DNA of 64,000 nucleotides, from IMG/VR virus record IMGVR_UViG_3300028048_000038, positions 128,001 to 192,000 of that record, one strand, 5' to 3'. This stretch comes from a virus (lineage: Duplodnaviria; Caudoviricetes). This document shows positions 2,925 to 58,828 of this stretch, one piece after another. The position numbers were made by a program, and so were the translations under genes. The notes beneath the pieces were generated by a model. That model did not search any database, was not told the DNA's origin, and was given only the letters and a program-made list of their open reading frames with translations. The stretch's first letter is position 1; each line of letters opens with the position of its first letter.

Positions 2925-2995
2925 ATCTCCTAGAGGAATCGAACCTCTCTTCCGACTTGCGATGCCACGTGTCCTAACCGATAGACGAAGGAGAT
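2925..2995 (-). tRNA. tRNA-like gene, irregular anticodon arm (loop ATCGCAA)
   Basis: Acceptor ATCTCCT/AGGAGAT, canonical T arm, Glu/Asp-type D arm. Confidence 0.55.
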
Positions 2996-8262: not shown

Positions 8263-8577
8263 ATTTCCTTGTTTTTAAATTTCTGATGTAAAGATACGAA
8301 AAAAAGTTGAACCAACCAAATGATTAATTCAACTTTAACACTCATTAACCTTACACTTGTTCTCGGCTCTATTCACCTTGTTGTAAAAGTTAATCCTTTT
8401 CAACTTAATAGTAAATTAGATTTACCTGTATCAACCATGAAGGTATCCTCTTAACCATCAAGGAACTAGGGCAAGGGACTAATCCTTGCACCGCATTACT
8501 GCTTCATCTGCCATTTCTTACATGGCTTGCGCTTGTCTAACCTATTTCAGTATTTCAATGAATACACCAAGCCGTAG

Positions 8578-8653
8578 TGAGCATAGTAGGATTCGAACCC
8601 ACGCCTTTTACGGTCCTAGAAGCCGTTGCAATCGACCACTCTGCCATATGCCC
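8578..8653 (-). tRNA. tRNA with CUA anticodon (candidate amber suppressor)
   Basis: GGGCATA/TATGCTC acceptor, ACGGC TTCTAGG ACCGT anticodon arm, canonical T arm. Confidence 0.65.
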
Positions 8654-10008: not shown

Positions 10009-11166
10009 TCACTGTTGTGCTTCAGTTAGAATTCTATAGCCCTCATTTTTGATATTAATTGCAGCGTTTATATCTCTATCAATACGTTCACCGCAATTAG
10101 GGCATATCCAATATCGTTCACTAAGTTTAAGGTCTTGCTTGACATATCCACAATGACTACAAGTTTTAGAGCTAGGGAAGAACCTATCAATCTCAACAAC
10201 CTTGACACCGTTCCAAGATGATTTATACTGTAGTTTGGTTTTAATCTCGTTAAACGAAGACTCTTGTATACTTTTTGCTAGGTGATGATTACTTACCATT
10301 CCTTTGACATTTAAGTTTTCAAGACATACAGCACTAGTTCTGCTATCATAAGCAATGTCGTGTGTAACCTTGTCAATGAACGCCTTCTTCCTGTTATTTA
10401 TTTTATTCTTGAATTTAGCTAGCTTCAACCTAGCTTTTTCTTTATTCCTAGAACCATTTTTCTTCTTCGATAGCCTTCTGCAAAGCATTTTATATTTTTT
10501 GTCCTCTTTGCTGTCAGTCCTCAATGAATTGTATTTAGTTCCATCACTAGTGATAATTGAATTTTTAACGCCTAAATCAATACCAATAACGGTATCATAT
10601 GTGACTTCTTTTTTTTCAAGCGGCTCTGTTGTATCCTTTACCAAAATCGAAATAAAGTATTGGTCTGACTTGTTATATGACAATGTAGCTTGCTTAATTT
10701 CTCCGTTGAATTTTCTATGAAGCCTAGCATCTATCAAACTTGTCAATTTTGGTATCTTCACCTTATTCTCAGCCCAGAACACCTTAATCCCTTGGTATGT
10801 CGTATATGACCCACTGAAACTCTTTTTTTTGAAGGCTGGACCACCAGCATCGGTTTTAACTCCTTGTTTTCTAGCTTTACAAGCCCTAAAGAAATTATTG
10901 TAGGAAGCATCCAAATATGTAGATGTCCATATTAGAGACTTTGCATCAACACTTTTAAGCCACGAGGTTTCTTCATTCTTTTTGAGAGAAGGTAATTCTC
11001 TAGCTACATTGTATTGACAACTTAAGTGCTCTCCAGTCTCTTTAAAACACTTCTTAATTTTATCAAGAGCATAATTGTAAAACCATCTATTAGCACCTAC
11101 GTTTTGTCTTATAAACTGTTTTTGCTCCTCAGTTGGATAAATTCTATACTTATATGCTCTTAACAT
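10009..11166 (-). CDS. tnpB: TnpB/Cas12f-like RNA-guided endonuclease
   Basis: RAYKYRIYPT N-terminus, RuvC-I GIDLG, RuvC-II CLENL, Zn finger CSHC/CPNC, RuvC-III DRDINAAINI; no TnpA nearby. Confidence 0.93.
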   Translation of the reverse strand: MLRAYKYRIYPTEEQKQFIRQNVGANRWFYNYALDKIKKCFKETGEHLSCQYNVARELPSLKKNEETSWLKSVDAKSLIWTSTYLDASYNNFFRACKARKQGVKTDAGGPAFKKKSFSGSYTTYQGIKVFWAENKVKIPKLTSLIDARLHRKFNGEIKQATLSYNKSDQYFISILVKDTTEPLEKKEVTYDTVIGIDLGVKNSIITSDGTKYNSLRTDSKEDKKYKMLCRRLSKKKNGSRNKEKARLKLAKFKNKINNRKKAFIDKVTHDIAYDSRTSAVCLENLNVKGMVSNHHLAKSIQESSFNEIKTKLQYKSSWNGVKVVEIDRFFPSSKTCSHCGYVKQDLKLSERYWICPNCGERIDRDINAAINIKNEGYRILTEAQQ

Positions 11167-11195: not shown

Positions 11196-11250
11196 CGGAA
11201 GCTAGTTAAACCTAGAGTTGCAATCTATGTAATATTGCTGTGAGCTTCCT
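11196..11250 (-). ncRNA. ACAGCA-stem RNA carrying a bare Cys(GCA) anticodon-like hairpin
   Basis: GGAAGCT-C-ACAGCAA...TAGA TTGCAAC TCTA...AGCTTCC. Confidence 0.65.
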
Positions 11251-13699: not shown

Positions 13700-13763
13700 C
13701 GGAAACTCTTGTTTACCCCTAAATTCACAGTTTAGTATAAAATTCACTTGCTGTTAGTTTCCT
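13700..13763 (-). ncRNA. ACAGCA-stem RNA carrying a bare His(GUG) anticodon arm
   Basis: GGAAAC-TA-ACAGCAA...CTAAA CTGTGAA TTTAG...GTTTCC; own promoter near 13785. Confidence 0.7.
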
Positions 13764-14147: not shown

Positions 14148-14324
14148 TTTTCAAAGAACTTTTTTTCTTTTATAAAATAATCAGCTACACGAACCTCTTC
14201 AATGTACTTATGAAAGATTCCCTTCCACGTATGTTATACAGATTAATACATGACTTTTATCCTAATATAGCATAACTTTACTGTAAAAGTTTACTTCATC
14301 ATCCAACCCTGACTGATTATTAAG

Positions 14325-14780
14325 TGGACTTGCGCAGAGTCGAACTGCGGTCACAATTACCGACCCATAAAGGATTATACAAGCTTAAGAAAATTGGTGA
14401 GTGGCTTGCGCCACCCTTCCTCTCTGCCACCTCATTTTGAGAAAACGAGGAAAACTTGGGGAATGACTAGAGTCACCGATTCCACCATTTGATTATCAGA
14501 ATGTTCTACCAAGCTGTCAACAGCTACAACACACCTAAGTGTTTTGAACTAAAGCATTGCTCCCAAGGTCTCGAACCAGGAACCTTTCTTCTAATCAAAA
14601 AAAATTTGCTAGGATGTTCTGTTCCTAAGAGCCTAGCCTCTCGGCTCACGCTTACGCAGCTATAGCGTACTCGTAAACAGGAGAATCTACGTTCTCTGCG
14701 TTTATTTTTTTTGCTATTTGAAGTGTATGCCCACTGCTTGTCCTTTACCAGACGCATAACGTTCTATACCATTCAAGCCC
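14325..14780 (-). ncRNA. ssrA: tmRNA; tag peptide AENVDSPVYEYAIAA* (14652-14699)
   Basis: 5' GGGCTTG pairs with 3' CAAGTCC-A including G3:U70; terminal T arm CGCAG TTCGACT CTGCG; internal tag ORF ending YAIAA-stop. Confidence 0.88.
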
Positions 14781-15669: not shown

Positions 15670-15803
15670 CGGAAACGTTTTTAACATTTTAAGTTGCTCT
15701 ACCGGACTGAGCTACAAGGAGCTTACACCCCTCGATGGGATTTGAACCCATGACCTACTGCTTACAAGGCTTATTAAAAAATAACCATTGCTGTCTGTTT
15801 CCT
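15670..15803 (-). ncRNA. circularly permuted tRNA-Thr(UGU)-like RNA clamped by ACAGCA stem
   Basis: Order: GGAAAC-AG-ACAGCAA, GC CTTGTAA GCAGT, V, T arm, 3' acceptor CGAGGGG, loop, 5' acceptor CTCCTTG, D arm, ACT, GTTTCC. Confidence 0.8.
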
Positions 15804-19790: not shown

Positions 19791-20088
19791 GTTATTCGTA
19801 GATTACGTTATTATGATGCAAAGATACGAAAAAAAAATGGAACAACCAAATTTTTTAAGAAAAATTAATATCATCGTTGCTAAAAATAAGCATAATAACG
19901 GCAAACCATGAACCTAATGAGAATACTATCATATTAAATAAATCTTTAGCATCCTCAAACATACGACCATTATAAGCTTTATTTCTAACTTTAAATTCAT
20001 AATAGTCACTTGTACCCCATATAAACGCAATTAAGCATCCTAATATATAAAATACCCAAAAATTCATAACATTTCCTTTCTTCCATTG

Positions 20089-20161
20089 AGCCTCGTGAGG
20101 GATTCAAACCCCCGACATTCACATTACTAAAGTGACGCTCTATCAACTGAGCTAACGAGGC
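20089..20161 (-). tRNA. tRNA-Thr (AGU)
   Basis: GCCTCGT/ACGAGGC acceptor, loop TTAGTAA. Confidence 0.8.
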
Positions 20162-20462: not shown

Positions 20463-20586
20463 CGGTGACGTGTGGACTCGAACCACAGACCAACGGATTA
20501 ACAATCGACATTCATAATCTGCTGTGGGTTACGCACACGAGGTAACACGTGAATTTACGCTGCTCTACCAACTGAGCTACGTCACC
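20463..20586 (-). tRNA. tRNA-Asn (GUU) interrupted at 29/30 by a 51-nt ACAGCA-stem insertion (20507-20557)
   Basis: Canonical acceptor, D and T arms; removal gives GCGGA TTGTTAA TCCGT; insert has GTTAC/GTAAC-CC-ACAGCAG. Confidence 0.8.
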
Positions 20587-20595: not shown

Positions 20596-20727
20596 GGGTA
20601 CATAAAACCAACATTTCAACCCCTCCAGTTTATTTAATTCTCTTTGCGGAGGGGGTGGGAATCGAACCCACGTTACACAAATTGACAGTCTGTTTGAAGT
20701 GTAAATTTATACTTGCTGTGTGTACCC
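20596..20727 (-). ncRNA. circularly permuted tRNA-Asp(GUC)-like RNA clamped by ACAGCA stem (D arm lost)
   Basis: GGGTAC-AC-ACAGCAA, ACAGA CTGTCAA TTTGT, T arm, CCCCTCC-G, linker, GGAGGGG, GTACCC. Confidence 0.75.
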
Positions 20728-21194: not shown

Positions 21195-21396
21195 ATATGA
21201 AAACTGCCAATCTTATCTTTCCTCCCAGTCTTTACACGTACAGTCAAAGAATTCGTCCGTAGACATTCCAAATCCGTGTTTGTCACACCATCCAGCGTAC
21301 ATTTCGTCTTCACCATATAGACACGAACAACACGCTTTTGTGATGTATTTGGCTGGAGTTAATTTTACTTTTTTATCCATAATGTATTTTATTTTG

Positions 21397-21486
21397 TCCT
21401 CCGTGTTGGAGTCGAACCAACCACACTCGCTTTAAAAGAGCGATGTTCTTGTCTCTTTCGAGCACTCACCGATGAACTAACGGAGG
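21397..21486 (-). tRNA. tRNA-Lys (UUU) with hairpin inserted in the D loop
   Basis: TCGCT CTTTTAA AGCGA; D loop contains CTC GAAA GAG. Confidence 0.75.
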
Positions 21487-21497
21487 TTAGAAATCAG

Positions 21498-21571
21498 TGC
21501 GCCCAGAGGGACTCGAACCCTCGACCCCGAAATTAAAAGTTTCGTGCATCTACCATCTGAGCTATAGGCGC
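21498..21571 (-). tRNA. tRNA-Lys (UUU)
   Basis: CGAAA CTTTTAA TTTCG. Confidence 0.88.
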
Positions 21572-21576
21572 ATATG

Positions 21577-21648
21577 TGCTCCCATAGGGACTTGAACCCT
21601 AAACCCTCGGCTTAAGAGGCCGCAGCTCTACCATTAAGCTATAGGAGC
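21577..21648 (-). tRNA. tRNA-Lys (CUU)
   Basis: loop CTCTTAA, canonical arms. Confidence 0.88.
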
Positions 21649-26218: not shown

Positions 26219-26509
26219 GGAAGCGTAGGTTTATTCTAGTTGGAGATTCAGCTATTACGATGAGGGCGATATTTCAAGGTTGACTCCACAACTCCTTGCG
26301 AAGATGCTTCAACGTCTCTCGCCTATCCTACACTCACATGCCTTTGCTACTATCTTCACAAGAGTAATACGTTACCTCAACCCTTTGCCTAGTGTGATTA
26401 AAGATTAGAGAGGTACGCTTACTGGTTGCCTTTGCAAGTGTTTAATTGGAAACCTCTAAAATCAGCAATCGTTAGTAACAAGATGATTAAGTACATGCTG
26501 TACGCTTCC
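26219..26509 (-). ncRNA. large (291 nt) ACAGCA-stem RNA with non-tRNA cargo
   Basis: 5' GGAAGCGT-ACAGCAT ... 3' ACGCTTCC. Confidence 0.6.
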
Positions 26510-26542
26510 ACTATGTTTTGTGTCAATTGCGACAAAAGAAAA

Positions 26543-26693
26543 AGGAACGGTCAATTTATTGTCATGACTAGACATTCGCTCCGAAGAGCATAGATAAGTG
26601 CCTCGCAATTATGATTTAGTGCTTCGCTTATCCTCATTTACGAATCTAATTAACAAAATGCTTTTAAATAAGTAAATGCTGCTGTACGTTCCT
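26543..26693 (-). ncRNA. 151-nt ACAGCA-stem RNA with non-tRNA cargo
   Basis: 5' AGGAAC-GT-ACAGCAG ... 3' GTTCCT. Confidence 0.6.
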
Positions 26694-28897: not shown

Positions 28898-29036
28898 CGG
28901 AAACATTTTATTCTCCAATAGCCGTGTTTACCAATTCCACCAACGCCCTCGTTAAGATAGACGTGTGGGAGTCGAACCCACAAACCGTTACGGTAGCAAT
29001 TTACAATAATAACTCTTTATTTGCTGGATGTTTCCT
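28898..29036 (-). ncRNA. circularly permuted tRNA-Tyr(GUA)-like RNA clamped by the stem motif (CCAGCAA variant)
   Basis: GGAAAC-AT-CCAGCAA, loop TTGTAAA, V arm ACCG TAA CGGT, T arm, ACGTCT, linker, GGGCGT, D arm, GTTTCC. Confidence 0.75.
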
Positions 29037-32244: not shown

Positions 32245-32332
32245 GGGAACTATAACTTTGATAGGCTCGAACTATCTATTTTCATTTTGGTCAAATAAAA
32301 AATTATCCATTTTAAACTTGCTGTAAGTTCCC
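32245..32332 (-). ncRNA. ACAGCA-stem RNA with residual T arm
   Basis: GGGAAC-TT-ACAGCAA...GATAG TTCGAGC CTATC...GTTCCC. Confidence 0.65.
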
Positions 32333-32682: not shown

Positions 32683-32714
32683 AACATTATTTTAAAAATG
32701 TTCCTCTATAATAG

Positions 32715-32787
32715 TCGGGGTGACAGGACTCGAACCTGCGACCCCAGCATCCCAAATGCCGTGCGCTACCAACTGCGCCACACCCCG
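32715..32787 (-). tRNA. tRNA-Pro (UGG)
   Basis: Canonical, loop TTTGGGA. Confidence 0.92.
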
Positions 32788-32792
32788 AATTT

Positions 32793-32913
32793 CGGAAACA
32801 TTTATCCATCTTAGCTATCACGCCAACCTTGGTAGCGTGAGTTGGACTCGAACCAACGACCCTTAAATTATCAGTTTAATGCTATACCTATTAATACTTG
32901 CTGTATGTTTCCT
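32793..32913 (-). ncRNA. circularly permuted tRNA-Ile(GAU)-like RNA, opened in the D loop, clamped by ACAGCA stem
   Basis: GGAAAC-AT-ACAGCAA, GGTATAGC-A, TTAAA CTGATAA TTTAA, T arm, TCACGCT-ACCA, linker, GGCGTGA-TA-GCTA, GTTTCC. Confidence 0.8.
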
Positions 32914-32981
32914 TTTTTTTTCATTTGCAAAGATATACAAAAAAAAATTAAATTCCAAATTTTTTTGATAACTTTTTTCAT

Positions 32982-33339: not shown

Positions 33340-33455
33340 CGGAATCCTTTAACTTTAGGTAGATATGGACTCGAACCATAATCTCTTGGTAAAATCCAAG
33401 GCTCTAACCAATTGAGCTATCCATCTGATGTTATATCCATTGCTGTAAGATTCCT
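33340..33455 (-). ncRNA. ACAGCA-stem RNA enclosing a whole unpermuted tRNA-like cloverleaf (6-nt anticodon loop)
   Basis: GGAATC-TT-ACAGCAA...AGATGGA, D arm, CTTGG ATTTTA CCAAG, T arm, TCTACCT...GATTCC. Confidence 0.7.
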
Positions 33456-35156: not shown

Positions 35157-35231
35157 GGGAACATTTTTTAACCGTACTCTTAAAACCCAAAATTAATTAC
35201 TTGTTAATAGAAATACTTGCTGTGTGTTCCC
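35157..35231 (-). ncRNA. minimal ACAGCA-stem RNA
   Basis: GGGAAC-AC-ACAGCAA...GTTCCC. Confidence 0.65.
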
Positions 35232-37507: not shown

Positions 37508-39055
37508 TTAAAGTTTTAACATATCAAATAATGAATTCGTGGACTTAGAATTTCTGTCATTTTGGTTAACGCCCATAATCTTAAACATGCCATTCAAGTC
37601 CTTTGAAAGTGTCTTCAATGAAGAATCAAGTGTATCGAAATACACATCAAGACTATCCATATATAGGTTAAGAGAGCTTAATCCATTTGCTATTTTAATA
37701 TTCGGCATTTTAGGGAAGCTTGGGATTTTGATGTTGTATTCTTTCATCTTATCTACGGCTTGCTCCACTAGTTTTCTCTTTTCCTTAAGTCTTCTTTCTT
37801 CCTCGGCTATTCTCTTTTGTCTTTCTTTCTCTTCCCTCTCAATTCTCTCTTTTCTAGCCTTTTCTTTTCTAGCTTTCTCTGCTTCATACTCTTCAACTGT
37901 ATAAGCACCCAATTCATCCCAAGCAATCTTGAAATGGTCGTTTGGATTAAAACCATCCAAGTAAGGTCTCTCAACACCACTTTTTCCATCAATTGCGGTT
38001 GGGTCATTGGTGTGTTTCACAAGTTTGATAAGTATATACACTGTATCGTCCTCAGAAATGAAGTTGCCGTGAGTATAATTCAAACCGCTTGGATATGCAA
38101 TCTGGGCATCCAATCTTGTATTTGACGCAATCATGACTCCATTTTTTGTTTCTCCACTTGGCTTTTCATACACGATTGGCTCATCGCTTGTAACTCTCAA
38201 GGACTTCATGAATCTTTCTTCCTTAATCAGTTTACCGCTTGGCGTTACCACATAACCATCAGAATAATCCTTAAAGCCATTAAGCTTCAATAAGACATAT
38301 CTGATTGTGTTATCTATTTCGCTTGTTGGTGTAGTGCCCAAGTTGTTTTTATCGAATGGTATTGTTTCCTTAACTCTTCGCCAACTAAGGTGTTTTGGGA
38401 ATAGTTGCAATCCATTTTCATATTCTATCCCCATGCATTCGCAATCATGCTTTGAGAGAGTAAAGATTTTATCTTTGTATCCACCAACTTGTTTAACGAT
38501 TACTGAATTAATATTGATACCATCGTACTCATCATGTACGCCAACAAGTTCATATATCTTCTCAGGCATTTCGAATCCCTCACAAGACACACCACTTAAT
38601 GCATACTTTTCTCCTTTTATAAACTTTGGAATACAATTACTTGGCTCATTGACAACCCCCATATCCGTGAAATCGACAGCCTCAAACATTTCCTTTGGAT
38701 GATAAAATAAGTTTTCGACATACCCACTGTCATTTTTTGCTGAACTTGGGTATGCATATGATTTCAGCGTAGTATTGCGTTTGAAGTCAGCATCTACCAT
38801 TTCACTGATACCACTAATCACTTTATTTGACATCTTTGGTCTAGCTATACATGGACTTGCTATTTTTCCCATAGGGTTATGAGTTAATTCAGATAATTTA
38901 ACTGCTATTTCTCTGCCATCTGAGGCATTTTTAAGGTGAATGTAGTCACCAATAACATATGCGCTAGAAACAGTCCAATCATCACTTAGGGTGATTGGAA
39001 CTAGTTCTATCTTATTGTTTCTGTATGTATTTACTAATACTTGCTTATAGTTCAT
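37508..39055 (-). CDS. hypothetical protein with C-terminal coiled coil
   Basis: 515-aa ORF coupled to TelA-like gene. Confidence 0.7.
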   Translation of the reverse strand: MNYKQVLVNTYRNNKIELVPITLSDDWTVSSAYVIGDYIHLKNASDGREIAVKLSELTHNPMGKIASPCIARPKMSNKVISGISEMVDADFKRNTTLKSYAYPSSAKNDSGYVENLFYHPKEMFEAVDFTDMGVVNEPSNCIPKFIKGEKYALSGVSCEGFEMPEKIYELVGVHDEYDGININSVIVKQVGGYKDKIFTLSKHDCECMGIEYENGLQLFPKHLSWRRVKETIPFDKNNLGTTPTSEIDNTIRYVLLKLNGFKDYSDGYVVTPSGKLIKEERFMKSLRVTSDEPIVYEKPSGETKNGVMIASNTRLDAQIAYPSGLNYTHGNFISEDDTVYILIKLVKHTNDPTAIDGKSGVERPYLDGFNPNDHFKIAWDELGAYTVEEYEAEKARKEKARKERIEREEKERQKRIAEEERRLKEKRKLVEQAVDKMKEYNIKIPSFPKMPNIKIANGLSSLNLYMDSLDVYFDTLDSSLKTLSKDLNGMFKIMGVNQNDRNSKSTNSLFDMLKL

Positions 39056-40350
39056 TATTCATTGAGCAACTTTGGGTCTCTCTTCCCACGAAGTTCACTT
39101 GAGATAACTTTCTGAGTGGACTCTGCAACACCGATTGCTTTCATATGCATTTCCTTCTCAAGCTTTGCAATTTCAGCCTCGGCAGCAGCACGTCTTTCAG
39201 CACCTTCCTTCTGAGCCTTTTGTACCCCCTCTACAGTGGCTACAAGCTCTTGTGTAGACTTACGAAGAGTCTCTACATCAAGAACCATACGCTGACTCTG
39301 TTTCGCAACCTCAATGGCTTGTACCTTCATCATTTCAGCGTTCTTACGGAACAACTCATTGGTGGTATCAGTTACCTTTGTACCAATCTCAATGGCTTGC
39401 TTCTGGTCATACAATGCCACAGCCAATGACAACTGATTCTTCCAAAGAGGAATTGTCATAGCAATCTGAGACTCAGTGTTGTTAGCATGCATGATGTTTG
39501 TACGCTGAATAATACGAATCTGAGTCAATGACTGCTTAAACGCATAACGAAGGGCGATAAGGTCAGTGAGTCGCTTATCAAGAGCATTCTTGTACTCTTC
39601 GATGTCACTAATCTGATACTCTTCATACTCATTTGAGCGTGACTTCATATCGTCAATCAGTGTACCAAGCTCCTCAGACTTCATCTTACCTGCTACGATA
39701 AGGTCTTCCAATTGGTCTACATAATCACAGTTATTCTCAAACTGCTTCTGCAAGAGATTATTATCTCGAATGGCAATCTGACGTGTTGCCTCAAGCTTCT
39801 TAACAATACCGTCAATGTTCTTCTCGATAGTGTTGTACTTAGCCTTAATCTGCTCAACAGAAATAACGAGTCTCTTAAGTCCAGGAATACGTCTCAAGAA
39901 TCTCTTGACTGCATTAGGTGCTTCAAGGTCGTTAATGTCAACCTCATGCAACTCACCCAAGAGGTTTGAAATCAACTGAGCTGACTCAATACCAGCCTTG
40001 GAATCAAATGATTGCTTAAGGAAGTCACTTGAGTATGAACTCATTGCTCTCTGGAGGTCTGAGCCATAGCTAGTAATGGTTGACATTTCCTTCTCATTGA
40101 GAACTGATGCAATCTCCTTATAATACGCTTTACGAGCTGGAGTAAGATTACTCGTATTAATCTCTCCACTATCATCAACACGCTTCAGTGAGGTACTACC
40201 ACTAGTAAGTTCAGTCTCTGCCTCTGCTGAAATCTCATCAAGGGCACGTCTTGTGCGTGTTGGAGACTTACGAGTAGTTCTCTTAACTCTTGGCTTCTTC
40301 ACTTCACTTACTTCAGCCTCAACAATTGTTTCTTTTGTCTTTTTCGCCAT
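39055..40350 (-). CDS. toxic anion resistance protein (TelA/KlaB family)
   Basis: Long helical protein with TIPLWKNQL..A and N.L.R.NAEM signature. Confidence 0.85.
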   Translation of the reverse strand: MAKKTKETIVEAEVSEVKKPRVKRTTRKSPTRTRRALDEISAEAETELTSGSTSLKRVDDSGEINTSNLTPARKAYYKEIASVLNEKEMSTITSYGSDLQRAMSSYSSDFLKQSFDSKAGIESAQLISNLLGELHEVDINDLEAPNAVKRFLRRIPGLKRLVISVEQIKAKYNTIEKNIDGIVKKLEATRQIAIRDNNLLQKQFENNCDYVDQLEDLIVAGKMKSEELGTLIDDMKSRSNEYEEYQISDIEEYKNALDKRLTDLIALRYAFKQSLTQIRIIQRTNIMHANNTESQIAMTIPLWKNQLSLAVALYDQKQAIEIGTKVTDTTNELFRKNAEMMKVQAIEVAKQSQRMVLDVETLRKSTQELVATVEGVQKAQKEGAERRAAAEAEIAKLEKEMHMKAIGVAESTQKVISSELRGKRDPKLLNE

Positions 40351-41409: not shown

Positions 41410-42768
41410 TCATCTTCTCTTGTCCTCTGCTGCCTTGATGTTCATCTTTGGCTTCATGAAGAACTTGATGTCAACTGTTGGCTCAATGAGTTTCACAATC
41501 TCATCCATTGGCTTGTATGCAGCTGGAGCCTCATCCAATGTTTTCTCGTCAGCAGTGGTGGTATAGATACCAGCATCTGCCATCTGCTTCTTGAACTCCT
41601 CAACATCCAAGGTCTTGTTAGCCTTATCACGAGACATAGAACGTCCACAGCCATGCGGGGCTGTCCAGTTCCAATCCTCGTTTGACTTACCTTCACAGAT
41701 TGAGATACCATCCCTCATATTGAATGGGATAATTAACTTCTCTCCCTCATAGGCACGAATAGCACCCTTACGAATCATCATATTTGGCTTTCCACTCAAC
41801 GCCTTAAAGTCATAATCGATGTAATTATGAGTAGTGGCAATAAAGTCAATTGGCTTGCCACCATCTGACATCTTACGATAAATTTCAACCAACTGCTCGT
41901 GGATAACCTCGTGGTTCAACTTGGCATATACTTGAGCAATCAAGACATCGACAAGATAACCCATAAGTTTGTCACCGTTCAAGTATCCTGGAATCTTACG
42001 TGATAAGTACTCCTCTCTTGCTGCATCAATCTCTGCCTTAATCTTCTTTCTATCAGTATTCTTCTCCTTGACCTTATCCTCAAGCATCTTCATTTCCTCT
42101 CTAGAAACTACCATGCTTCTTGCTATCTTATCCCAATAGTTGAATACAGCCAAGCCCAACTTACGTGAGCCACAGTGTACGCACATGCAGTACTTACCAA
42201 GGTCATCATTAACATCGTACTCCACAAAATGATTACCACCACCCACAGAGCCAATAGACTTCATGAAATCACCATAAGGAATGTGTACATGTTTACACCA
42301 ATTCTCTAAATCCATTTCTGAGTTGAAATAGATTGCATAGTCCACAAACTTAGGATAAAGTGAAACCAATCTATCCATAGCTGAATTAATAGCCTTTGCA
42401 ATTCGCTTCCAATCAATCTTGGACTTGTCATTGATGGTGAATCCAAACGGAATATCCTTGCGAATCTTGTGCTCAAACTCCTTCATCTTATCCTCGACAA
42501 TAGGCTTGTCGAAGAAAGTGGCAGAGATTGTACAACCAATGTCACAACCTACATGCTCAGGATTAACGTGGTCTGTTTCAATGTTAACTGGGCATGAGAA
42601 TCCAATCACAATGCCCTTACCATCGTGACAATCAGGCATGATACGAATCTTTCTATCCTTAAATGCCCTACAATCAGCAATCCTATATATCGTTGACAAT
42701 GCGGTCTCCTCCACATTGTCGGTAAAGACCTTTATGTACTTACAATACTGTCCTTTAATTTCTAACAT
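41410..42768 (-). CDS. rtcB: RtcB-family RNA 2',3'-cyclic phosphate/5'-OH ligase
   Basis: MPDCH, VGCDIGC, GGGNHFVE, HCGSR, HNY, RKGA, PHGCGR, DEAP.AYK. Confidence 0.95.
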   Translation of the reverse strand: MLEIKGQYCKYIKVFTDNVEETALSTIYRIADCRAFKDRKIRIMPDCHDGKGIVIGFSCPVNIETDHVNPEHVGCDIGCTISATFFDKPIVEDKMKEFEHKIRKDIPFGFTINDKSKIDWKRIAKAINSAMDRLVSLYPKFVDYAIYFNSEMDLENWCKHVHIPYGDFMKSIGSVGGGNHFVEYDVNDDLGKYCMCVHCGSRKLGLAVFNYWDKIARSMVVSREEMKMLEDKVKEKNTDRKKIKAEIDAAREEYLSRKIPGYLNGDKLMGYLVDVLIAQVYAKLNHEVIHEQLVEIYRKMSDGGKPIDFIATTHNYIDYDFKALSGKPNMMIRKGAIRAYEGEKLIIPFNMRDGISICEGKSNEDWNWTAPHGCGRSMSRDKANKTLDVEEFKKQMADAGIYTTTADEKTLDEAPAAYKPMDEIVKLIEPTVDIKFFMKPKMNIKAAEDKRR

Positions 42769-45464: not shown

Positions 45465-46433
45465 TTAATGTAATAAAATATTTCCATCTTTAAGATTTAT
45501 ACAAACCTCAAGATTTCTACGTTTAAATTCGCTATTCCAAGAGCGCATACAAACCTTACGTACAGAGTCCACTCCATATAAATCTCCAAGATTTGGTACA
45601 AACTCTTTGTCACTCTTCTTGCAAGCCTCCATTCTACGCTGCTTAACATCTTCATTTTCAACATCAAATACAGTATTTTTAATGGATTCTGTTAAGCCAT
45701 CAGTAGCATACATTGGTTTAATCTTCTCTGAAAGACCGTCCCATTTGCTTAATACGTGGTCAATCTCATTATAAGTATATCCTGGCATTATCTGTTCAGC
45801 ATCACCTCCAGCTTTAACCCCATTACCATCTGTAGGTATGAGTGCAATCGACTGCTCAAGTGCCTTAGAATCTTTGAAAACATTTTCCTTCATCCACTTT
45901 GCAAGAGCGTAAACTTCTGTTTTCCAAAGTTCACCAATTGGGTTTATATCACCAACATCACCATGTAGTGTCCAAAAGCCTGTTAGCCACTCAGTTTTAT
46001 TTGATGTGCCCATTACAATACCTCCAACCTTTGAAGCGATATCGTACAACGTAATCATACGCAAACGTGCCTTGATGTTACCTTGTGAAATTGGTGTCTT
46101 CTCCTTACCGCTAGCCTCAGTACAGAACTTCTCCATTACCTCATATGGCTCTTGTAGGTTAACCACCTTGAAAGTGTCACAGAACTCGGTGCCAGCAGCC
46201 TTGGCTGCATCATTCTCCACATCTGCATTGGTTGAGCATGGAAGAGATACGCCAATAAGGGGAATGTTTCCAGCCTTACATAGTGCAGCTACTACTGTGG
46301 AGTCAATACCACCACTTAATCCAAGAACTACAACCTTAATATGATTCTGATTTACATAACTCTTAATTCCCTCTACAAGAATCTTAAATACAACTTCCAT
46401 ATCTAATGGAATTGGACGATACGTTTCTACCAT
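45465..46433 (-). CDS. nadE: NH3-dependent NAD+ synthetase
   Basis: LGLSGGIDS, GNIKARLRM, GTSNKTE...G..T.HGD. Confidence 0.93.
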   Translation of the reverse strand: MVETYRPIPLDMEVVFKILVEGIKSYVNQNHIKVVVLGLSGGIDSTVVAALCKAGNIPLIGVSLPCSTNADVENDAAKAAGTEFCDTFKVVNLQEPYEVMEKFCTEASGKEKTPISQGNIKARLRMITLYDIASKVGGIVMGTSNKTEWLTGFWTLHGDVGDINPIGELWKTEVYALAKWMKENVFKDSKALEQSIALIPTDGNGVKAGGDAEQIMPGYTYNEIDHVLSKWDGLSEKIKPMYATDGLTESIKNTVFDVENEDVKQRRMEACKKSDKEFVPNLGDLYGVDSVRKVCMRSWNSEFKRRNLEVCINLKDGNILLH

Positions 46434-47040: not shown

Positions 47041-48333
47041 TTAACCATTTGCAAGAATCAGTGTATAATCTTTGCGTCCTTTGGTTAACAATAGATATTT
47101 ACCATTAATCAAGTTACTAGTATCAATAACGGCTTTTTCATTGGTTGCTTTCTCCTTATTGATAGAGAAACCATTAGCCTTAATCAGTTTTCTAGCCTCA
47201 GACTTTGACGGTACTTTATCATGCATTGTTGCAAGGTCTAATACTGTAAGTCCACTTGTAAACTGCTCCTTGGATACTTCGACCTTTGACACGCCATTCA
47301 TTGCAGCAAGAAGGGACTTTTCATCAATAGAGGCAAGTTGTTCTGTAGTACCCTTACCAAACAGAATCTCAGTAGCTTCTACTGCCTTGTTATACTCTTC
47401 CTCAGAGTGAACCATGCAAGTCATGTACTTTGCAAGCTCTTTCTGTAATACACGAGCTGAAGGCTGCTCACGATGTTTCTCAATTAGAGCATTAATCTCG
47501 TCTAATGGAATAAGAGTAAATAGTTTAATGAAACGTTCTGAGTCTGTATCTGACTGATTAAGCCAAAATTGATAGAACTCATATGGACTTGTCTTTTCGG
47601 CATCAAGCCAAATGTTACCCTTCTCTGACTTACCAAACTTTGTACCATCTGCCTTGGTTACAAGAGGCCAAGTAATCATACATGCATCAGTACCGCCAAC
47701 CATCTTACGGATAAGCTCAATACCAGTTGTACCGTTTCCAAATTGGTCACTACCACCAATCTGAAGTTTACAATTATATTTCTTATATAATTCTACGAAA
47801 TCGTAACCTTGGATAAGCTGATATGTAAACTCAGTGAATGACATTCCGTTACCATCACGTTCAAGACGTTTCTTGACGGAATCCTTTGCCATCATATAAT
47901 TCACGCTAATACACTTACCAACCTCACGTGCGAAATCAATAAATGAGAAGTTTTTCATCCAATCATAGTTATTAACCATAATTGCACCATTCTCATCCTT
48001 TGAATCGAAATCAAGAAGTTTGCTAACTTGTGCATGAATTCCCTTAATGTTGTGTTCTACAGTTTCAGCACTAAGGAGTTTTCTTTCTTCTGACTTAAAC
48101 GATGGGTCTCCAATAAAGGCTGTTGCACCGCCTAAAAGAACAATAGGCTTATGCCCATAGGACTGAAGCAACTTAGCAGTTGTAAAGGCAAGCAAATGCC
48201 CTAAGTGAAGACTATCAGCAGTAGGGTCAGTTCCCACATAGAATGTTGTTGGCGTTTTTAACAATTCCTCTAAGTTTCCAGAGAGACTTGCTATAAGTCC
48301 TCTCTCTTTAAGTTCTGAAAGTAATGGATTCAT
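47041..48333 (-). CDS. tyrS: tyrosine--tRNA ligase
   Basis: DPTADSLHLGH, QIGGSDQ.GN, KFGKS, C-terminal S4 domain. Confidence 0.97.
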   Translation of the reverse strand: MNPLLSELKERGLIASLSGNLEELLKTPTTFYVGTDPTADSLHLGHLLAFTTAKLLQSYGHKPIVLLGGATAFIGDPSFKSEERKLLSAETVEHNIKGIHAQVSKLLDFDSKDENGAIMVNNYDWMKNFSFIDFAREVGKCISVNYMMAKDSVKKRLERDGNGMSFTEFTYQLIQGYDFVELYKKYNCKLQIGGSDQFGNGTTGIELIRKMVGGTDACMITWPLVTKADGTKFGKSEKGNIWLDAEKTSPYEFYQFWLNQSDTDSERFIKLFTLIPLDEINALIEKHREQPSARVLQKELAKYMTCMVHSEEEYNKAVEATEILFGKGTTEQLASIDEKSLLAAMNGVSKVEVSKEQFTSGLTVLDLATMHDKVPSKSEARKLIKANGFSINKEKATNEKAVIDTSNLINGKYLLLTKGRKDYTLILANG

Positions 48334-48642: not shown

Positions 48643-50316
48643 TTAAATATTAATGTAGTTCAAAATCTCTTGGCTAAGAGCCTTTTCAACTAGCTCTTCG
48701 GCAGTCATCTGACGCACCTCACCTGTTTTCTCGTCAATCACTTTAGTATCTCCCATCAGCATTGTGATGATTGAAGGGTCAAAGCCAGAAAGGAATGTAC
48801 ATCCTGGTTCTATCGACTTACCCTCAAAGTGAGTAACACCATGCCTTGAAGCTACATCCCACCAAATGAATTTCATGTTATTCACGAACTCCTCTGGGAA
48901 CACTGTCTTCAATGACCTTACTGAGTACTCATAGTTGGTTGGCTCAGTACGTCTTGAGTACCATCCTCCAGTTGGGTTAAACTCCATATCACTTACAACC
49001 AATATACTTGTACAATACTGCTCAAGTGGAATCTCAGGGTGTTCCTTTCTAATCTTAATAATCTCGTCAACCGCAGATTGGAAGTTAGTACCACCGCAAC
49101 CCACGCTTGGAAGATTCATTATTCTATCGCAGAATGAATCACCCTTCATGTCATAAGGTGTTGACACATTATCGAACATGATGACCTTGTTATGGAATGG
49201 ACCAGTGTTAAGGTCAGCAAAGAACAGTGCAAGAGAACTTGCAACATCTGAACAGTAAATATCCTTTAAGCCAGTAACTGGCTGGTTCATACTTCCACTA
49301 GTATCAAGGCAACACCATACATTCTCAGTAATTCTACCGCCATCACGTGCCTTGTCTACAAGACCCTTAAACTGTGCATCAAGGGTGTGCTTAACCTCTA
49401 GAGGAATTGTCATAGAACCTCTACGATATCCACGTGAACCACGTGCCTCACGAAGACGTTTTGCAAGCTCGAAGACATAACCAGTGAATTTTGCTACTGG
49501 CTGCTGCATAATCCACTCTGTGTAGTTATCCTTCAAACCGTGATTTGAAAGGAACTTACTTGTTACAAGGAGGTTAAGAGCACGACCTGGAATGTGATTC
49601 CAATTCAAATCCTTATAGTTACGAGAACAAATCAACTTTTGGAAGTCGTGTGCTCTACCGCTTGACTTCATCTTATTGTACTCCTTATAGGTAATACCCA
49701 TCTGATTAGCAAATGCCTTTGCCAAATCATTAGTGATGGTAGTCCACTCAGTTTTGCACTTGCTCTGTGACTTGATACGAGGCATATACTTCTTAATCAA
49801 GTCAACATGTGTGTCACAAAGCAAACCTTGTGCAATAACCTCAAAGAGTGCCTTTTGATTTAAGCACTTGATGTTATCCTTGATGTCGTAGTACATGAGT
49901 GTCCACAAGTCCTTCCAAGAACCAACAAGAGGCAATGCCCAAATGTTCTTGTAGAATGCGTCCTTTTGCTCTTGAGCAATCCAAAGCAAACGCTTGAATG
50001 ACTCGTCACGAGCACCTTGACCATTCTGAACCTTATCAGTCTCATTATCGGCATTCACCTTAACCTTGCGTGTAACCATACGAAGGTAGAATGGGAAACG
50101 AAGAGCTGCACTTGGATTCTCAGCCCAAATTGTAGCTTGGTCAGCAAATACTTCTGCTAGTGTACGTCCTCTGAAGTTACCAGCCTTACCGAATTGGTCA
50201 ACAATGGCACTACCGCTAGAAATAAGAGTTTTTGCCCCGTTTTCGGTAGTTGTAAAACTCTCGAATCCCACTGCATCAATAAATGCGTTTGTCTTTGTTG
50301 CTGTTTTTGTATTCAT
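48643..50316 (-). CDS. TROVE-like/vWA protein (DUF2828-like, Ro60-related architecture)
   Basis: TENGA N-terminus, G.G.R, GSWKDL, helical region, then MIDAS CLDTSGSM, GTNF, VSDMEF. Confidence 0.75.
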   Translation of the reverse strand: MNTKTATKTNAFIDAVGFESFTTTENGAKTLISSGSAIVDQFGKAGNFRGRTLAEVFADQATIWAENPSAALRFPFYLRMVTRKVKVNADNETDKVQNGQGARDESFKRLLWIAQEQKDAFYKNIWALPLVGSWKDLWTLMYYDIKDNIKCLNQKALFEVIAQGLLCDTHVDLIKKYMPRIKSQSKCKTEWTTITNDLAKAFANQMGITYKEYNKMKSSGRAHDFQKLICSRNYKDLNWNHIPGRALNLLVTSKFLSNHGLKDNYTEWIMQQPVAKFTGYVFELAKRLREARGSRGYRRGSMTIPLEVKHTLDAQFKGLVDKARDGGRITENVWCCLDTSGSMNQPVTGLKDIYCSDVASSLALFFADLNTGPFHNKVIMFDNVSTPYDMKGDSFCDRIMNLPSVGCGGTNFQSAVDEIIKIRKEHPEIPLEQYCTSILVVSDMEFNPTGGWYSRRTEPTNYEYSVRSLKTVFPEEFVNNMKFIWWDVASRHGVTHFEGKSIEPGCTFLSGFDPSIITMLMGDTKVIDEKTGEVRQMTAEELVEKALSQEILNYINI

Positions 50317-50923: not shown

Positions 50924-51829
50924 TTAATTAAGCTTTTTCATTTCTTTAATGTACTCAATCTTGATTTCTTCCATAGCTGCAAGTTCAAGCTGTCTTACAC
51001 GCTCTGAGGTCAAGCCAAGAATCTGCCCGATTTCCTCACGTTCATATTCATGTCTGAGTCCATTATCCTCTTCATACATTCCAAAACGCATCTTGATAAT
51101 CTGTTGTTTACGTGGTGAGAGTTTGCCAAGTAATGAAGATACTAGCTTTCTATTAAATTCATTTGTTTCTTCCTCTTCATAGTCATTATATGAAGCGCTC
51201 ACTCGGTTATATGCTGCCATATCACCATAGTTTGGGCTTTCATCTTCATCGCTTGAAGATTCATCCACGTAACTGACTTTCAAATCTAAGATGTCGTTTT
51301 TGTCCCTAATGTCCTTTCCGTACTTTGTTGTTACAATATCAAACAACTCATCTGGACTTGGTGTCCTCTCATTACTCTGTAGGAAGTCGTTTGTAGCTTT
51401 GGAAATTACGTGGAACGTCTTAGAGAAGTTTGGTCGTTTAACAACTTGCAAATCTCCACAGATATACTTGTTAATTGCACGTTTAATAAACCACATCGCA
51501 TAGGTTGAGAACTTAACGTCCTTGGATATGTCAAATCTCTCAATAGCCTCAAGAAGTCCAAAGTTAGCCTCATTAACATAATCCATATAGGAATCAGTCT
51601 TTGCCCATTTCTTAGCTGCTGCCAACACTAATCTTTGGTTGCATAACATGAGATAATCCCTTGCCATGTCACTCTCCTTCTTATTACCATATTTGTATCT
51701 TTTGAACCATTCTACAGCCTCTTCCTTTGTCAATGTCGGATAGTCCTTAACATCCTTAAGAAATCTAATTGTATTCTCAGTGCGGTCTACAAGTCCTGTG
51801 TCAGCTTTAAGATTAATTACGTAACCCAT
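50924..51829 (-). CDS. sigma-70 family RNA polymerase sigma factor
   Basis: NQRLV..AKK, GLLEAIERFD, KFSTYA.W, region 4 EIG..LGLTSERVRQLE. Confidence 0.92.
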   Translation of the reverse strand: MGYVINLKADTGLVDRTENTIRFLKDVKDYPTLTKEEAVEWFKRYKYGNKKESDMARDYLMLCNQRLVLAAAKKWAKTDSYMDYVNEANFGLLEAIERFDISKDVKFSTYAMWFIKRAINKYICGDLQVVKRPNFSKTFHVISKATNDFLQSNERTPSPDELFDIVTTKYGKDIRDKNDILDLKVSYVDESSSDEDESPNYGDMAAYNRVSASYNDYEEEETNEFNRKLVSSLLGKLSPRKQQIIKMRFGMYEEDNGLRHEYEREEIGQILGLTSERVRQLELAAMEEIKIEYIKEMKKLN

Positions 51830-55704: not shown

Positions 55705-56787
55705 TTATTTGAAATGTTCTTGTTTCTTCAATTCATCTATAAGTCTCTTTTCATCGTTGTTAAGTGTCTTAGGTACTGTAACGCTTACAATACCTATCAT
55801 ATTTCCTGGCGAACCAATCGTATTGCCGTATCTAGGCAAACCATATCCTTTAAATCTCAACTCACTGCCACTGCTAGTTCCTTGTGGAATCTTAACCTTA
55901 ATGGTCTTACCATCCAAAGTCTTGATTTCCTTTGTACAACCAAGAATGGCTTCCACAACATTGATGTTAAGGTCAAATACAAGGTCCCTACCTTGTTTTT
56001 CGAATGTATCATGTTCCTTTATCTCAATGGTTACTAATAAACTGCCATTCGTACCCTTACCATGTGGTGAAGCATTTCCAAGTCCTGCGTATTCAATGGT
56101 CATTCCATCTTCCACACCTCTTGGAATGTTGAATGAAATTTGTGAAGTAGCATTTTGAACCACGCCATGACCATTACAATGTTTACATGGATTTTCAATT
56201 ATATACCCACTACCGCCACAAGTGGGGCACTTTTGCTTCATCATGAATCCAGTGGAATCAAATGTCATTCCAGTACCACCACAAGTTTTACAAGTCTTTC
56301 TGCGAGATTCGGCAGTCATGCCAGTACCATTACAATGTTTACATGGTTCAAATCTCTTAATCTTAATAGTCTTGTTACACCCACTCATTACCTCTTCAAG
56401 AGTGAGCTTCATGTTAATCTTGATATTGCCACCCTTGATTGGTTTCTCTTGCTGTTGATTGAATCCAAAGTCGAAATCTGCAAATGGGTTGCCATGCATA
56501 TGAAAATGCCTAAATATTTCATCCATATTCATATGGGCATAATCCGCACCGCCACTATGAAATTCAAACTTGCTCTTAGGACTATCGTATTCCTTGCGCT
56601 TTGCTTCATCCCCTAGTACTTCATAAGCTTCGGCAATCTCCTTAAACTTAGCTTCTGCCTCCTTAGAGCCGTTATTACGGTCTGGATGCCACTTTACACT
56701 AAGCTTACGGAAAGCTTTCTTAATTTCATCTTGAGAAGCACTTTTATCAACACCAAGAATCTTATAATAATCCTTTGTATCAGCCAT
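55705..56787 (-). CDS. dnaJ: chaperone DnaJ
   Basis: J domain HPD, four CxxCxGxG repeats. Confidence 0.97.
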
Positions 56788-56929
56788 TATTCTTATCTTA
56801 AGTTATAAACCTTTTTGCAAAGATATATATATTATTTCTAATTTCCAAATAAAATGCTAAAAATCTGAGAGACTTGTTGGGAAAGCCCCTCAGATTTGCA
56901 CAGATTTATCTTCAACCTTGCCAAGTCAT

Positions 56930-58828
56930 TTACTTCACTTCCTCAAAGTCTGCGTCTTGTACATCCTCTGTAGAAGCTGTAGCAGAGTCAAAATCATTTG
57001 GCTGTTGTGCAGTGTCATTCTGCTGCTGATTCTGACCATAAACACGCTGCGAAATTGTTTGCCATACCTCATTGATGGCAGTCTCAGTCTCGTTAATCTT
57101 GTTCACGTCCTTTGAGCTGACAGCAGACTTCATCTGAGCGATAAGACCCTCAATCTTGCTCTTCTCGTCCTCAGTGATATTGTCTTTCTGCTCCTCAAGC
57201 ATCTTCTCTTGGGTAAATACAATGGTATCACCCTTATTGACAGCCTCGGCAGTCTCACGCTCCTTCTTATCAGACTCAGCGTTAGCCTCTGCCTCTGCTT
57301 TCATGCGCTCAATCTCTTCCTTAGACAAGCTGCTAGAACCCTCTACACGGATAGACTGTGCCTTGCCAGTACCCTTATCGGTTGCACTAACCTCAACGAT
57401 ACCATTGGCATTGATGCTAATCTTAACGGCAATCTGAGGAATACCACGCTTTGCTGGAAGAATGCCAGTCAAGTTGAACTTACCAATTGACTTGTTCTGT
57501 GAAGCCATTGGGCGATTACCTTGCAAAAGGTTAATCGTTACCTCAGTCTGATTGTCTGCTGCGGTTGAGAATACTTGCTCCTTATCGCAAGGGATGGTAG
57601 AGTTAGCCTCGATAAGTGTGGTCATCACACCACCAAGGGTCTCGATACCCAAGTTAAGAGGTGTAACGTCAAGCAATACGATTTCTCCAACACCTTCCTC
57701 ACCACCAAGCACAGCACCTTGGATACATGCACCAAGAGAAACTGCCTCGTCAGGGTTAACTGCCTTTGATGGGTCTTTCTGGAACACGCTCTTTGCAGCC
57801 TCTACGACCTTTGGAATACGTGTAGAACCACCAACAAGGATAACCTCGTCAATATCCTTAATCTCAAGCTTAGAAAGCTTCAATGCCTCGTTACAGAGGT
57901 CAACAAGCTTCTTATACAGAGGTTCAATCAACTGCTCGAATTTAGCACGTGACAATGATGCAACAAAGTGCTTTGGAGTACCATTCACTGGAGCCAAGTA
58001 TGGCAAGTTAATCTCAGTTGACATTGCTGTAGAAAGTTCAATCTTAGCCTTTTCAGCAGCCTCCTTAATACGCTGCATAGCCATAGAGTCAGTGCTTACA
58101 TCAGCACCCTCTTGTTTCTTGAACTCTTCAACCACCCAATTGACAATGGCTTGGTCAAAGTCCTCACCACCAAGGTGTGAGTCACCATTGGTTGAAATAA
58201 CCTCGAATACGCCACCACCAAAGTTAAGGATTGATACATCTGATGTACCACCACCAATATCATATACAACGATATTCATGTCCTTGTCTGACTTGTCGAT
58301 ACCGTAGGCAAGTGCAGCAGCAGTAGGCTCATTGATAATACGCTTAACGTTAAGGCCAGCAATCTGACCAGCCTCACTAGTAGCCTTACGTTGGTCATCG
58401 TTGAAGTACGCTGGAACTGTAATCACAGCATCAGTAACCTCAGTGCCAAGATAATCCTCGGCAGTCTTCTTCATCTTCTGCAAGATGGTTGCTGAAATCT
58501 CTTGAGGGGTATATTTTCGGTTATCAATGCTTACACGTGGAAAACCACCCTCATTAACGACATCGTAAGTCACACGCTTTGCTTCATCTGCAACGCTAGC
58601 AAATGGCATACCCATGAAACGCTTGATAGCGTACACAGTATTCTTAGGGTTAGTAATAGCTTGTCTACGTGCAGCATCACCGACCTTACGTTCACCATCC
58701 TTAAATCCTACAACTGATGGAGTTGTACGATTACCTTCACTATTAACAATAACAGTAGGTTGACCACCTTCAAAAACTGATACGCAAGATGTTGACGTAC
58801 CAAGGTCAATTCCAATAATTTTTCCCAT
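56930..58828 (-). CDS. dnaK: chaperone DnaK (Hsp70)
   Basis: [33 protein letters not shown]. Confidence 0.98.

What the first reader, a model, noticed from the sequence alone, without database searches (positions are those of the whole stretch)
32793..32913. Permuted tRNA-Ile(GAU) opened in the D loop, with an internal encoded ACCA
Seen: here the clamp is inserted in the D loop (GCTA and TAGC halves lie at opposite ends). The acceptor 3' strand is followed by ACCA and a 5-nt linker before the 5' strand. Inference: cutting the linker would give a two-piece, chargeable tRNA held together by the clamp, analogous to two-piece tmRNA. It has its own promoter near 32928.
Basis: partly seen in the sequence, partly recalled or inferred. 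Interest (0 to 1): 0.8.

Follow-up and report, generated by a model that had tools for sequence, protein, structure and literature searches.

The report
Phage Y-like RNA carrying whole tRNA
A giant phage encodes a small RNA that is a complete isoleucine-type tRNA written back to front and opened in its D loop, where a conserved "handle" is inserted; it is most likely a partner RNA of the phage's Ro60-like ring protein that imitates a tRNA, not a working tRNA, and neither its layout nor its family turned up in Rfam or in the papers searched.

Summary
Observation confirmed. Window 32794-32912 (-) is a 119-nt circularly permuted tRNA-Ile(GAU) body: D loop split by an 8-bp handle plus ACAGCAA, encoded ACCA, 5-nt linker, and a Bacteroidetes-type promoter at 32935-32928, in a 410-kb phage. 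Fourteen orthologues keep the fold (98.8% of cells paired; four pairs change on both sides). The linker looks processable: permuted handle RNAs with linkers of 9 nt or more keep C74 in 86/87 cases, short loops in 1/34, and the phage encodes a probable CCA-adding enzyme. But the anticodon drifts (six triplets in 14), one orthologue is sealed by a tetraloop, and the phage has a normal tRNA-Ile(GAU), so decoding is unlikely. The handle marks an RNA family found beside DUF2828 genes; the phage's DUF2828 protein folds like Ro60. Best reading: a Y-RNA-like, probably two-piece tRNA mimic on a Ro60-like protein, used against host tRNA-targeting defence. Binding, processing and function are inferred; no expression data. 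This scan noted the handle/DUF2828 family before in many other genomes and this topology once; what is added here is the orthologue set, the linker dichotomy and its origin from a sister form.

The parts
32956..32959 (-). Promoter -33 element TTTG (Bacteroidetes type)
   Evidence: consensus from own knowledge
32928..32935 (-). Promoter -7 element TATCTTTG; same motif before about 20 genes of the window and 10 of 14 orthologues
32794..32912 (-). The whole 119-nt handle RNA with D-loop-opened tRNA body
32905..32912 (-). Handle (clamp) 5' strand
32898..32904 (-). ACAGCAA box, invariant in 14 of 14 orthologues; presumed protein-binding site
32881..32888 (-). D-loop 3' half GGTA (18-21) and D-stem 3' strand TAGC (22-25)
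32863..32879 (-). Anticodon arm, five A-U pairs, loop CTGATAA, anticodon GAT at 32872-32870
32841..32862 (-). Variable loop (C48) and T arm
32834..32840 (-). Acceptor stem 3' strand (66-72)
32830..32833 (-). A73 plus encoded CCA
32825..32829 (-). 5-nt linker ending in U(-1); predicted RNase P cut between 32825 and 32824
   Evidence: inference
32812..32824 (-). Acceptor 5' strand (1-7), U8 A9, D-stem 5' strand GCTA (10-13)
32802..32811 (-). D-loop 5' half (A14 G15, second GG) and spacer
32794..32801 (-). Handle 3' strand
32714..32787 (-). tRNA-Pro(TGG), 6 nt downstream; probably co-transcribed, its 5' maturation would free the 3' end of the handle RNA
   Evidence: inference
48643..50316 (-). 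DUF2828/DUF7788 protein, 557 aa, Ro60-like fold; presumed binding partner
41410..42768 (-). RtcB RNA ligase; possible functional partner

Best explanation
A Y-RNA-like partner RNA of a divergent Ro60-type protein, whose cargo is a complete tRNA body. How it works: (1) it is transcribed from a Bacteroidetes-type promoter together with the downstream tRNA-Pro (motif shown, transcription inferred); (2) its two ends pair into the handle next to ACAGCAA, and the middle folds into a tRNA L-shape with the handle leaving from the D loop, so that both the anticodon loop and the acceptor end stay exposed (helices shown by comparison, 3D inferred); (3) host RNase P cuts before G1 and the 3' piece is trimmed to CCA or mended by the phage's nucleotidyltransferase, giving a two-piece RNA of about 83 and 31 nt held by handle, acceptor and D stems (inferred from linker signatures, about 65%); (4) the phage DUF2828 ring protein binds the handle (inferred from fold and gene neighbourhood, about 75%); (5) the particle is not a decoder but one of a panel of about ten tRNA look-alikes that the phage presents to host tRNA-recognising enzymes, most likely as bait or repair platform against tRNA-cleaving anti-phage nucleases, with phage RtcB resealing cut loops (inferred, about 40%). 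It arose from a sister form at the same locus whose D arm lies wholly on the 3' side, by a switch of D-stem partner to a redundant upstream copy.
For: Fold conserved in 14 distinct orthologues: 98.8% of cells paired, 4 pairs changed on both sides, 0/500 shuffles as high, slid controls at most 51.5%. Handle plus ACAGCAA: 8 copies in the window against 0.24 expected (more with looser rules). DUF2828 model: the 12 Foldseek hits with E<=0.001 are all Ro60/Rsr, full length; VIA Z 14.0, 13.8, 12.8 over about 400 residues against 10.2 for the next fold. Handle RNAs lie within 8 kb of a DUF2828 gene in unrelated records (Clostridia, Bacilli, Gammaproteobacteria, Saccharibacteria, Mycolicibacterium contigs): strict test 3/5 against 3/115, p=0.0007, and the other three DUF2828 loci also show handles. 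Linker dichotomy: C74 in 86/87 long linkers (29/30 distinct stems; background C 12%) against 1/34 short loops; U(-1) 72/87 against 7/34, the same signature as the phage's ordinary tRNAs (C74 35/38, U(-1) 32/38). Probable CCA-adding enzyme in the genome. Anticodon identity 0.41 against T arm 0.95, D strands 0.96-1.0, while neighbouring real tRNA-His and tRNA-Pro keep their anticodons. Every orthologue keeps at least one GG on one side of the split D loop. One clade, 100/99, syntenic with the sister form. Precedent: YrlA is a permuted tRNA mimic and M. smegmatis YrlA is cut by RNase P and gains CCA (PMC4201824).
Against: D and anticodon stems are weak by thermodynamics (about 0.08); the D stem has no two-sided change inside the class. 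The two-sided changes probably reflect few events among close relatives. DUF2828 is 16 kb away in this genome, and the model has pTM 0.50 and 12-16% identity to Ro60. C74 and U(-1) could partly be inherited from tRNA ends. In this copy the linker can pair with A73 and C74, which slows RNase P (PMC9433436). GAT is kept in 5 of 14 and in much of the sister class. The bait or repair role has no direct test.
Confidence: 0.6

Rival explanations
1. Same RNA and partner, but the linker stays closed: a sealed one-piece mimic like Salmonella YrlA, with the ACCA only a relic.
For: One orthologue has a 4-nt closing loop (L058); 34 family members have short sealed loops; linker pairs back onto A73/C74 in the predicted fold; most YrlA are thought to be uncut (10.1101/312249).
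Against: 13 of 14 orthologues keep C74 and a linker of 8-18 nt; 7-bp acceptor stem always kept; C74 tracks linker length across the family.
Confidence: 0.17
2. One reading: a chargeable two-piece tRNA-Ile(GAU) that decodes, for example as a nuclease-resistant spare.
For: Un-permuted sequence is a canonical tRNA-Ile with A73, G34 A35 U36 A37 A38, U12-A23, G15-C48; CCA encoded; GAT is the ancestral state on the tree; processing signatures; phage tRNAs are known to rescue from tRNA-cleaving defences (PMC11555353, PMC10802454).
Against: Six anticodons in 14 orthologues with no matching change of acceptor identity, one without U33, 6-nt loops in the sister class; acceptor hairpin was replaced while the anticodon stayed; all-A-U anticodon stem and G1-U72; an ordinary tRNA-Ile(GAU) exists; a helix plus a 64-kDa protein at the elbow should clash in the ribosome (inference).
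Confidence: 0.12
3. Algal/archaeal-type permuted tRNA gene: the handle is excised, the D loop is ligated (phage RtcB) and the circle is opened at the linker to give a normal tRNA.
For: Removing the handle restores a canonical tRNA; RtcB is encoded; this route is known in algae and Thermofilum (PMC3978253).
Against: No bulge-helix-bulge at the junction and spacers of variable length and sequence; the same handle encloses cargos that cannot give a tRNA (T arm only, bare hairpins, non-tRNA); anticodon drift.
Confidence: 0.06
4. Decayed remnants of two tandem tRNA genes that only look permuted.
For: Two tandem tRNA-Lys genes at 21497-21648 pass the same architecture filter, and YrlA is proposed to come from dimeric tRNAs.
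Against: The acceptor strands co-vary with each other, the handle encloses the unit, the outer halves are absent, and the unit is kept while flanking genes change.
Confidence: 0.03

Closest known systems
YrlA-type bacterial and phage Y RNAs with Ro60/Rsr (Rfam RF02553; PMC4201824; 10.1101/312249; phiRo60 PMC12135203)
   Same: Terminal stem with a conserved protein-binding motif at the 5' side; circularly permuted tRNA module with T arm before D stem; acceptor closed by a linker that can be cut by RNase P and receive CCA (M. smegmatis); Ro60-fold protein and RtcB in the genome.
   Different: Motif is ACAGCAA, not GNCGAAN0-1G; the RF02553 model does not match this element; the protein is DUF2828/DUF7788, not Pfam TROVE; the opening is in the D loop, so a full anticodon arm is kept, whereas YrlA has no anticodon loop.
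Circularly permuted tRNA genes of Cyanidioschyzon, green algae and Thermofilum (PMC3978253)
   Same: 3' half before 5' half, short intervening sequence closing the acceptor stem, complete tRNA recoverable.
   Different: Those are spliced at a bulge-helix-bulge and re-ligated to functional tRNAs; here there is no such motif, the ends form a family-wide handle, and the anticodon is not conserved.
Two-piece tmRNA (permuted ssrA; described in PMC3978253)
   Same: Permuted gene, linker removed from the acceptor end, two pieces not ligated (predicted here).
   Different: No tag reading frame, no G3-U70 alanine identity, anticodon arm present; the phage has a separate one-piece tmRNA at 14322-14780.
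Dictyostelium Class I RNAs (Rfam RF01414; PMC7919456)
   Same: Short stem joining the ends with a conserved unpaired motif next to the 5' strand; the conserved positions reported (C6, C9, A10, A11) fit ACAGCAA; variable interior.
   Different: Those are about 60 nt without a tRNA body, eukaryotic, bound by an RRM protein; RF01414 finds nothing in this genome.

Membership tests
YrlA Y RNA (RF02553) | GNCGAAN0-1G motif near the 5' end | tested here: not met
   5' region carries ACAGCAA in 14/14; motif definition
YrlA Y RNA (RF02553) | Match to the covariance model over its cut-off | tested here: not met
   only the sibling at window 15674-15781 scores, 36.2 bits against cut-off 69; this element not at all
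YrlA Y RNA (RF02553) | tRNA-like module with T arm 5' of acceptor stem and D stem | tested here: met
YrlA Y RNA (RF02553) | Protein-binding stem replaces the anticodon loop | tested here: not met
   anticodon arm intact, handle in D loop
YrlA Y RNA (RF02553) | TROVE-domain Ro60 gene within about 4 kb | tested here: not met
   no PF05731 match in the genome; Ro60-fold DUF2828 gene is 16 kb away
Y RNA in the broad sense | A Ro60-fold (helical repeat ring plus vWA) protein in the same genome | tested here: met
Y RNA in the broad sense | Physical binding to that protein through the terminal stem | not testable with these tools
   only gene-neighbourhood support
Algal/archaeal permuted tRNA genes | 3' half precedes 5' half and a whole cloverleaf is recoverable | tested here: met
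Algal/archaeal permuted tRNA genes | Bulge-helix-bulge at the joined termini | tested here: not met
   junction is an 8-bp stem, ACAGCAA and variable spacers (by inspection)
Algal/archaeal permuted tRNA genes | Circular intermediate and ligated mature tRNA | not testable with these tools
Functional tRNA-Ile(GAU) | Anticodon conserved among orthologues | tested here: not met
   5 of 14 GAT; six triplets
Functional tRNA-Ile(GAU) | Aminoacylation by IleRS | not testable with these tools
   A73 and G34-A38 present; no phage IleRS
Two-piece tmRNA | Alanine acceptor (G3-U70) and tag reading frame | tested here: not met
   C3-G70, no coding part; no RF00023 match here
Dictyostelium Class I RNA (RF01414) | Match to the covariance model | tested here: not met
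   (only 150 of 331 candidates scored)
Dictyostelium Class I RNA (RF01414) | Short terminal stem with adjacent 11-nt motif | tested here: inconclusive
   architecture and four of five conserved positions fit; homology not shown

The most novel reading that the evidence does not exclude
After cutting at the linker the RNA is aminoacylated and used by EF-Tu or the ribosome as a two-piece tRNA that carries a Ro60-like protein on a D-loop handle: a protein-tethered, D-loop-split tRNA that decodes, or that delivers or sequesters amino acids and synthetases during infection.
Probability: 0.15. Interest if true: 0.88.

Novelty: new variant of a known kind. Interest (0 to 1): 0.62.

Why it matters
It shows a Y-RNA-like scaffold can carry a whole tRNA with both business ends free, which YrlA cannot, and that the opening point of the permutation can move by switching D-stem partners. 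The family splits into sealed and apparently processable members, a clean and testable prediction. It also gives DUF2828/DUF7788 a likely identity as a divergent Ro60, and offers a compact phage system (ring protein, RtcB, CCA enzyme, panel of tRNA mimics) to test the open question of what the tRNA-like module of bacterial Y RNAs is for. tRNA finders miss these genes.

Tried and rejected
Pfam TROVE search of the genome: none; sequence search of the DUF2828 protein against PDB: none, the link to Ro60 is by fold only. BLAST against isolate phages found only tRNA-Pro matches. The pattern had a gap one base too long to catch this topology; repeated correctly, it found the D-loop-opened form only in this phage clade, none in GTDB contigs (pattern-limited, one metagenome scan only). 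Sigma-70 promoter scan uninformative. No phage RNase P RNA or IleRS. Rfam gathering gave no family for the handle RNAs, including bacterial copies. The single-strand folding z-score is only -1.45, so folding energy alone is not evidence.

Full report
Setting. The window lies in a 409,537-bp complete virus record and holds a dense minus-strand tRNA cluster (37 ARAGORN calls, a tmRNA). The promoter motif before about 20 genes of the window fits the Bacteroidetes -33/-7 consensus (consensus from own knowledge), so the host is probably a Bacteroidota; a rumen origin is likely from the related record sets but was not shown by a tool.

Observation. On the minus strand, 32912-32794 reads: 8-nt handle strand, ACAGCAA, 9-nt spacer, GGTA, TAGC, A, anticodon arm with GAT, variable loop, T arm, acceptor 3' strand, ACCA, AGGTT, acceptor 5' strand, TA, GCTA, AGATGG, spacer, complementary handle strand. 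Un-permuted, it is a 76-nt tRNA-Ile(GAT) for ARAGORN, with U8, A14, G15-C48, G18G19 and A21 in place. The architecture never arose in 200 shuffles of the window. The promoter boxes are at 32959-32956 and 32935-32928, and tRNA-Pro starts 6 nt after the handle. Thermodynamics supports the handle, T and acceptor helices, not the D and anticodon stems (about 0.08).

Orthologues. Searches through the phage's relatives and by pattern gave 287 distinct handle RNAs, 140 with a permuted acceptor stem, 14 of them D-loop-opened like this one. On their alignment 98.8% of cells pair; three acceptor pairs and one anticodon-stem pair change on both sides; the D stem shows one G-C to G-U change; slid controls reach at most 51.5%. 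These are relatives, so the changes are few events. GGTA before TAGC is kept in 13 of 14, and the one that lost it keeps the second GG on the other side, while three that lost the second GG keep the first: selection appears to keep one GG for the elbow. The class is one clade (100/99) between tRNA-His and tRNA-Pro, the locus where other phages carry a sister form whose D arm is complete on the 3' side and which already has a redundant TAGC or AAGC upstream. The simplest origin is a switch of D-stem partner with C13 to A13 (inference; the tree root is not fixed). A corrected pattern found the topology only in this clade.

Is it a working tRNA? The anticodon is GAT in 5, AAT 2, CAT 1, ATG 1, AGG 4, CGG 1; mean identity 0.41 against 0.95 for the T arm and 0.66-0.68 for the spacers. 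One orthologue lacks U33; several sisters have 6-nt loops. The acceptor hairpin was replaced within the GAT-bearing lineage. CCA is encoded in 6, ACAA or ACTA in 7, and one has a closing tetraloop. The phage has an ordinary tRNA-Ile(GAU) and no IleRS. Decoding is therefore not what selection keeps across the clade, though it is not excluded for the GAT copies.

Is the linker cut? Across 121 clear permuted members, linkers of 9 nt or more have C at position 74 in 86 of 87 (29 of 30 distinct acceptor stems; 12% C in the linker interior) and U(-1) in 72, whereas loops under 9 nt have C74 in 1 of 34 and U(-1) in 7. The phage's ordinary tRNAs, which mostly lack encoded CCA, show the same signature (C74 35/38, U(-1) 32/38), and the genome encodes a 464-aa nucleotidyltransferase whose best model is a CCA-adding enzyme, below the cut-off. 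U(-1) is optimal for RNase P and the 3' RCCA pairs with its L15 loop, while leader-RCCA pairing slows it (PMC9433436); some such pairing is predicted here. M. smegmatis YrlA, with a 7-bp acceptor stem, is cut by RNase P and gains CCA in vivo (PMC4201824).

What the handle is. Eight strict copies lie in the window (0.24 expected), enclosing permuted tRNAs, a tRNA body with extended acceptor, a T arm alone, bare anticodon hairpins or non-tRNA cargo. The genome has no Pfam TROVE gene, but the DUF2828/DUF7788 protein at 48643-50316, modelled at pLDDT 71.7 and pTM 0.50, matches only Ro60/Rsr chains at E<=0.001, over its full length, and Ro60 chains lead the independent search (Z 14.0, 13.8, 12.8). 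In unrelated bacterial and viral contigs, handle RNAs, several of them anticodon-opened permuted tRNAs, cluster beside DUF2828 genes (25% identity to the phage protein). RtcB is at 41410-42768.

Mechanism. Shown: sequence anatomy, conservation, covariation, linker dichotomy, anticodon drift, fold likeness, co-location. Inferred: transcription, L-shaped fold, cutting to two pieces, binding to the ring protein, and the role. I favour bait or repair platform against tRNA-targeting host defence, because the phage keeps a panel of different tRNA parts on one handle next to RtcB and a CCA enzyme, the elbow is conserved and the anticodon loops change quickly; phage tRNAs are known to counter such defences (PMC11555353, PMC10802454) and Ro60/Y RNA has been proposed as an RtcB cofactor (10.1101/312249). 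Tethering of a host RNase such as PNPase, as for phiRo60 (PMC12135203), is an open alternative for the same particle.

Comparison and novelty. It works like a YrlA-type Y RNA but fails the YrlA membership tests: other motif, no model match, other protein family, anticodon arm present. It is not an algal-type spliced permuted tRNA (no bulge-helix-bulge) nor a tmRNA. Dictyostelium Class I RNAs share the stem-plus-motif design but their model finds nothing here. No paper in the searched library describes the handle family or a D-loop-opened form. Verdict: real, conserved, a new variant of the Y RNA/Ro60 kind; interest 0.62; the chargeable or decoding reading has about 15% and would be worth 0.88.

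Noticed in passing
window 20596-20727 (-); L093, L203, L201, L092, L114, L139, L161, L183: Possibly a second, independent D-loop-opened class: GAA after the acceptor 5' strand and an invariant upstream TTC (10 of 10) could form a 3-bp D stem across the handle, with a GG-containing loop half on the 3' side; anticodons vary (GTC, GTT, TTT, GTA, irregular). No covariation, so unproven.
   Followed up: partly
window 15670-15802 (-): Anticodon-opened permuted tRNA-Thr(TGT)-like handle RNA with a sealed 6-nt acceptor loop; the only sub-threshold YrlA model hit in the genome (36.2 bits).
   Followed up: partly
window 33341-33454, 32245-32332, 35157-35231, 28898-29035, 13700-13762, 11196-11249, 26219-26693 (-); G000 about 3.4 kb left of the window: Further handle RNAs with other cargos: tRNA body with 6-nt anticodon loop, T arm only, type II permuted Tyr-like, bare His and Cys anticodon hairpins, non-tRNA cargo.
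   Followed up: partly
L093, L138, L201 against the TCACGCT subclade of alignment A2: The acceptor hairpin of this element is one compensatory pair away from that of a paralogous Gly-like handle RNA, suggesting module exchange between paralogues.
   Followed up: no
window 21497-21648 (-): Two tandem tRNA-Lys genes 6 nt apart mimic the permuted layout, a natural example of the dimeric-tRNA origin proposed for YrlA.
   Followed up: no
window 8577-8653 (-): tRNA with CTA anticodon (amber suppressor type) although long table-11 ORFs suggest no general TAG recoding.
   Followed up: no
window 2923-2995, 3217-3312, 20088-20161, 21396-21486 (-): Unusual anticodons for a bacterial system: Ala CGC, Leu AAG, Thr AGT, Ser AGA.
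   Followed up: no
window 20463-20586 (-): 124-nt tRNA-Asn-like Rfam hit with a long insertion containing a stem plus ACAGCAG: apparently a handle inserted into an unpermuted tRNA.
   Followed up: no
window 10009-11166, 39055-40350, 47041-48333, 45465-46433, 50924-51829, 55705-58828 (-): TnpB nuclease inside the tRNA cluster; TelA, TyrRS, NAD synthase, a sigma-70 factor, DnaJ and DnaK near the Ro60-like and RtcB genes.
   Followed up: no
L240:6360-6916 (-), L244:3800-4075 (-), L226:3820-4285 (-), L221:1734-2090 (+): Arrays of three to five handle RNAs beside DUF2828 in Saccharibacteria, Mycolicibacterium, Gammaproteobacteria and Clostridia contigs; a cultured Mycolicibacterium strain would be a handy test system.
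   Followed up: partly
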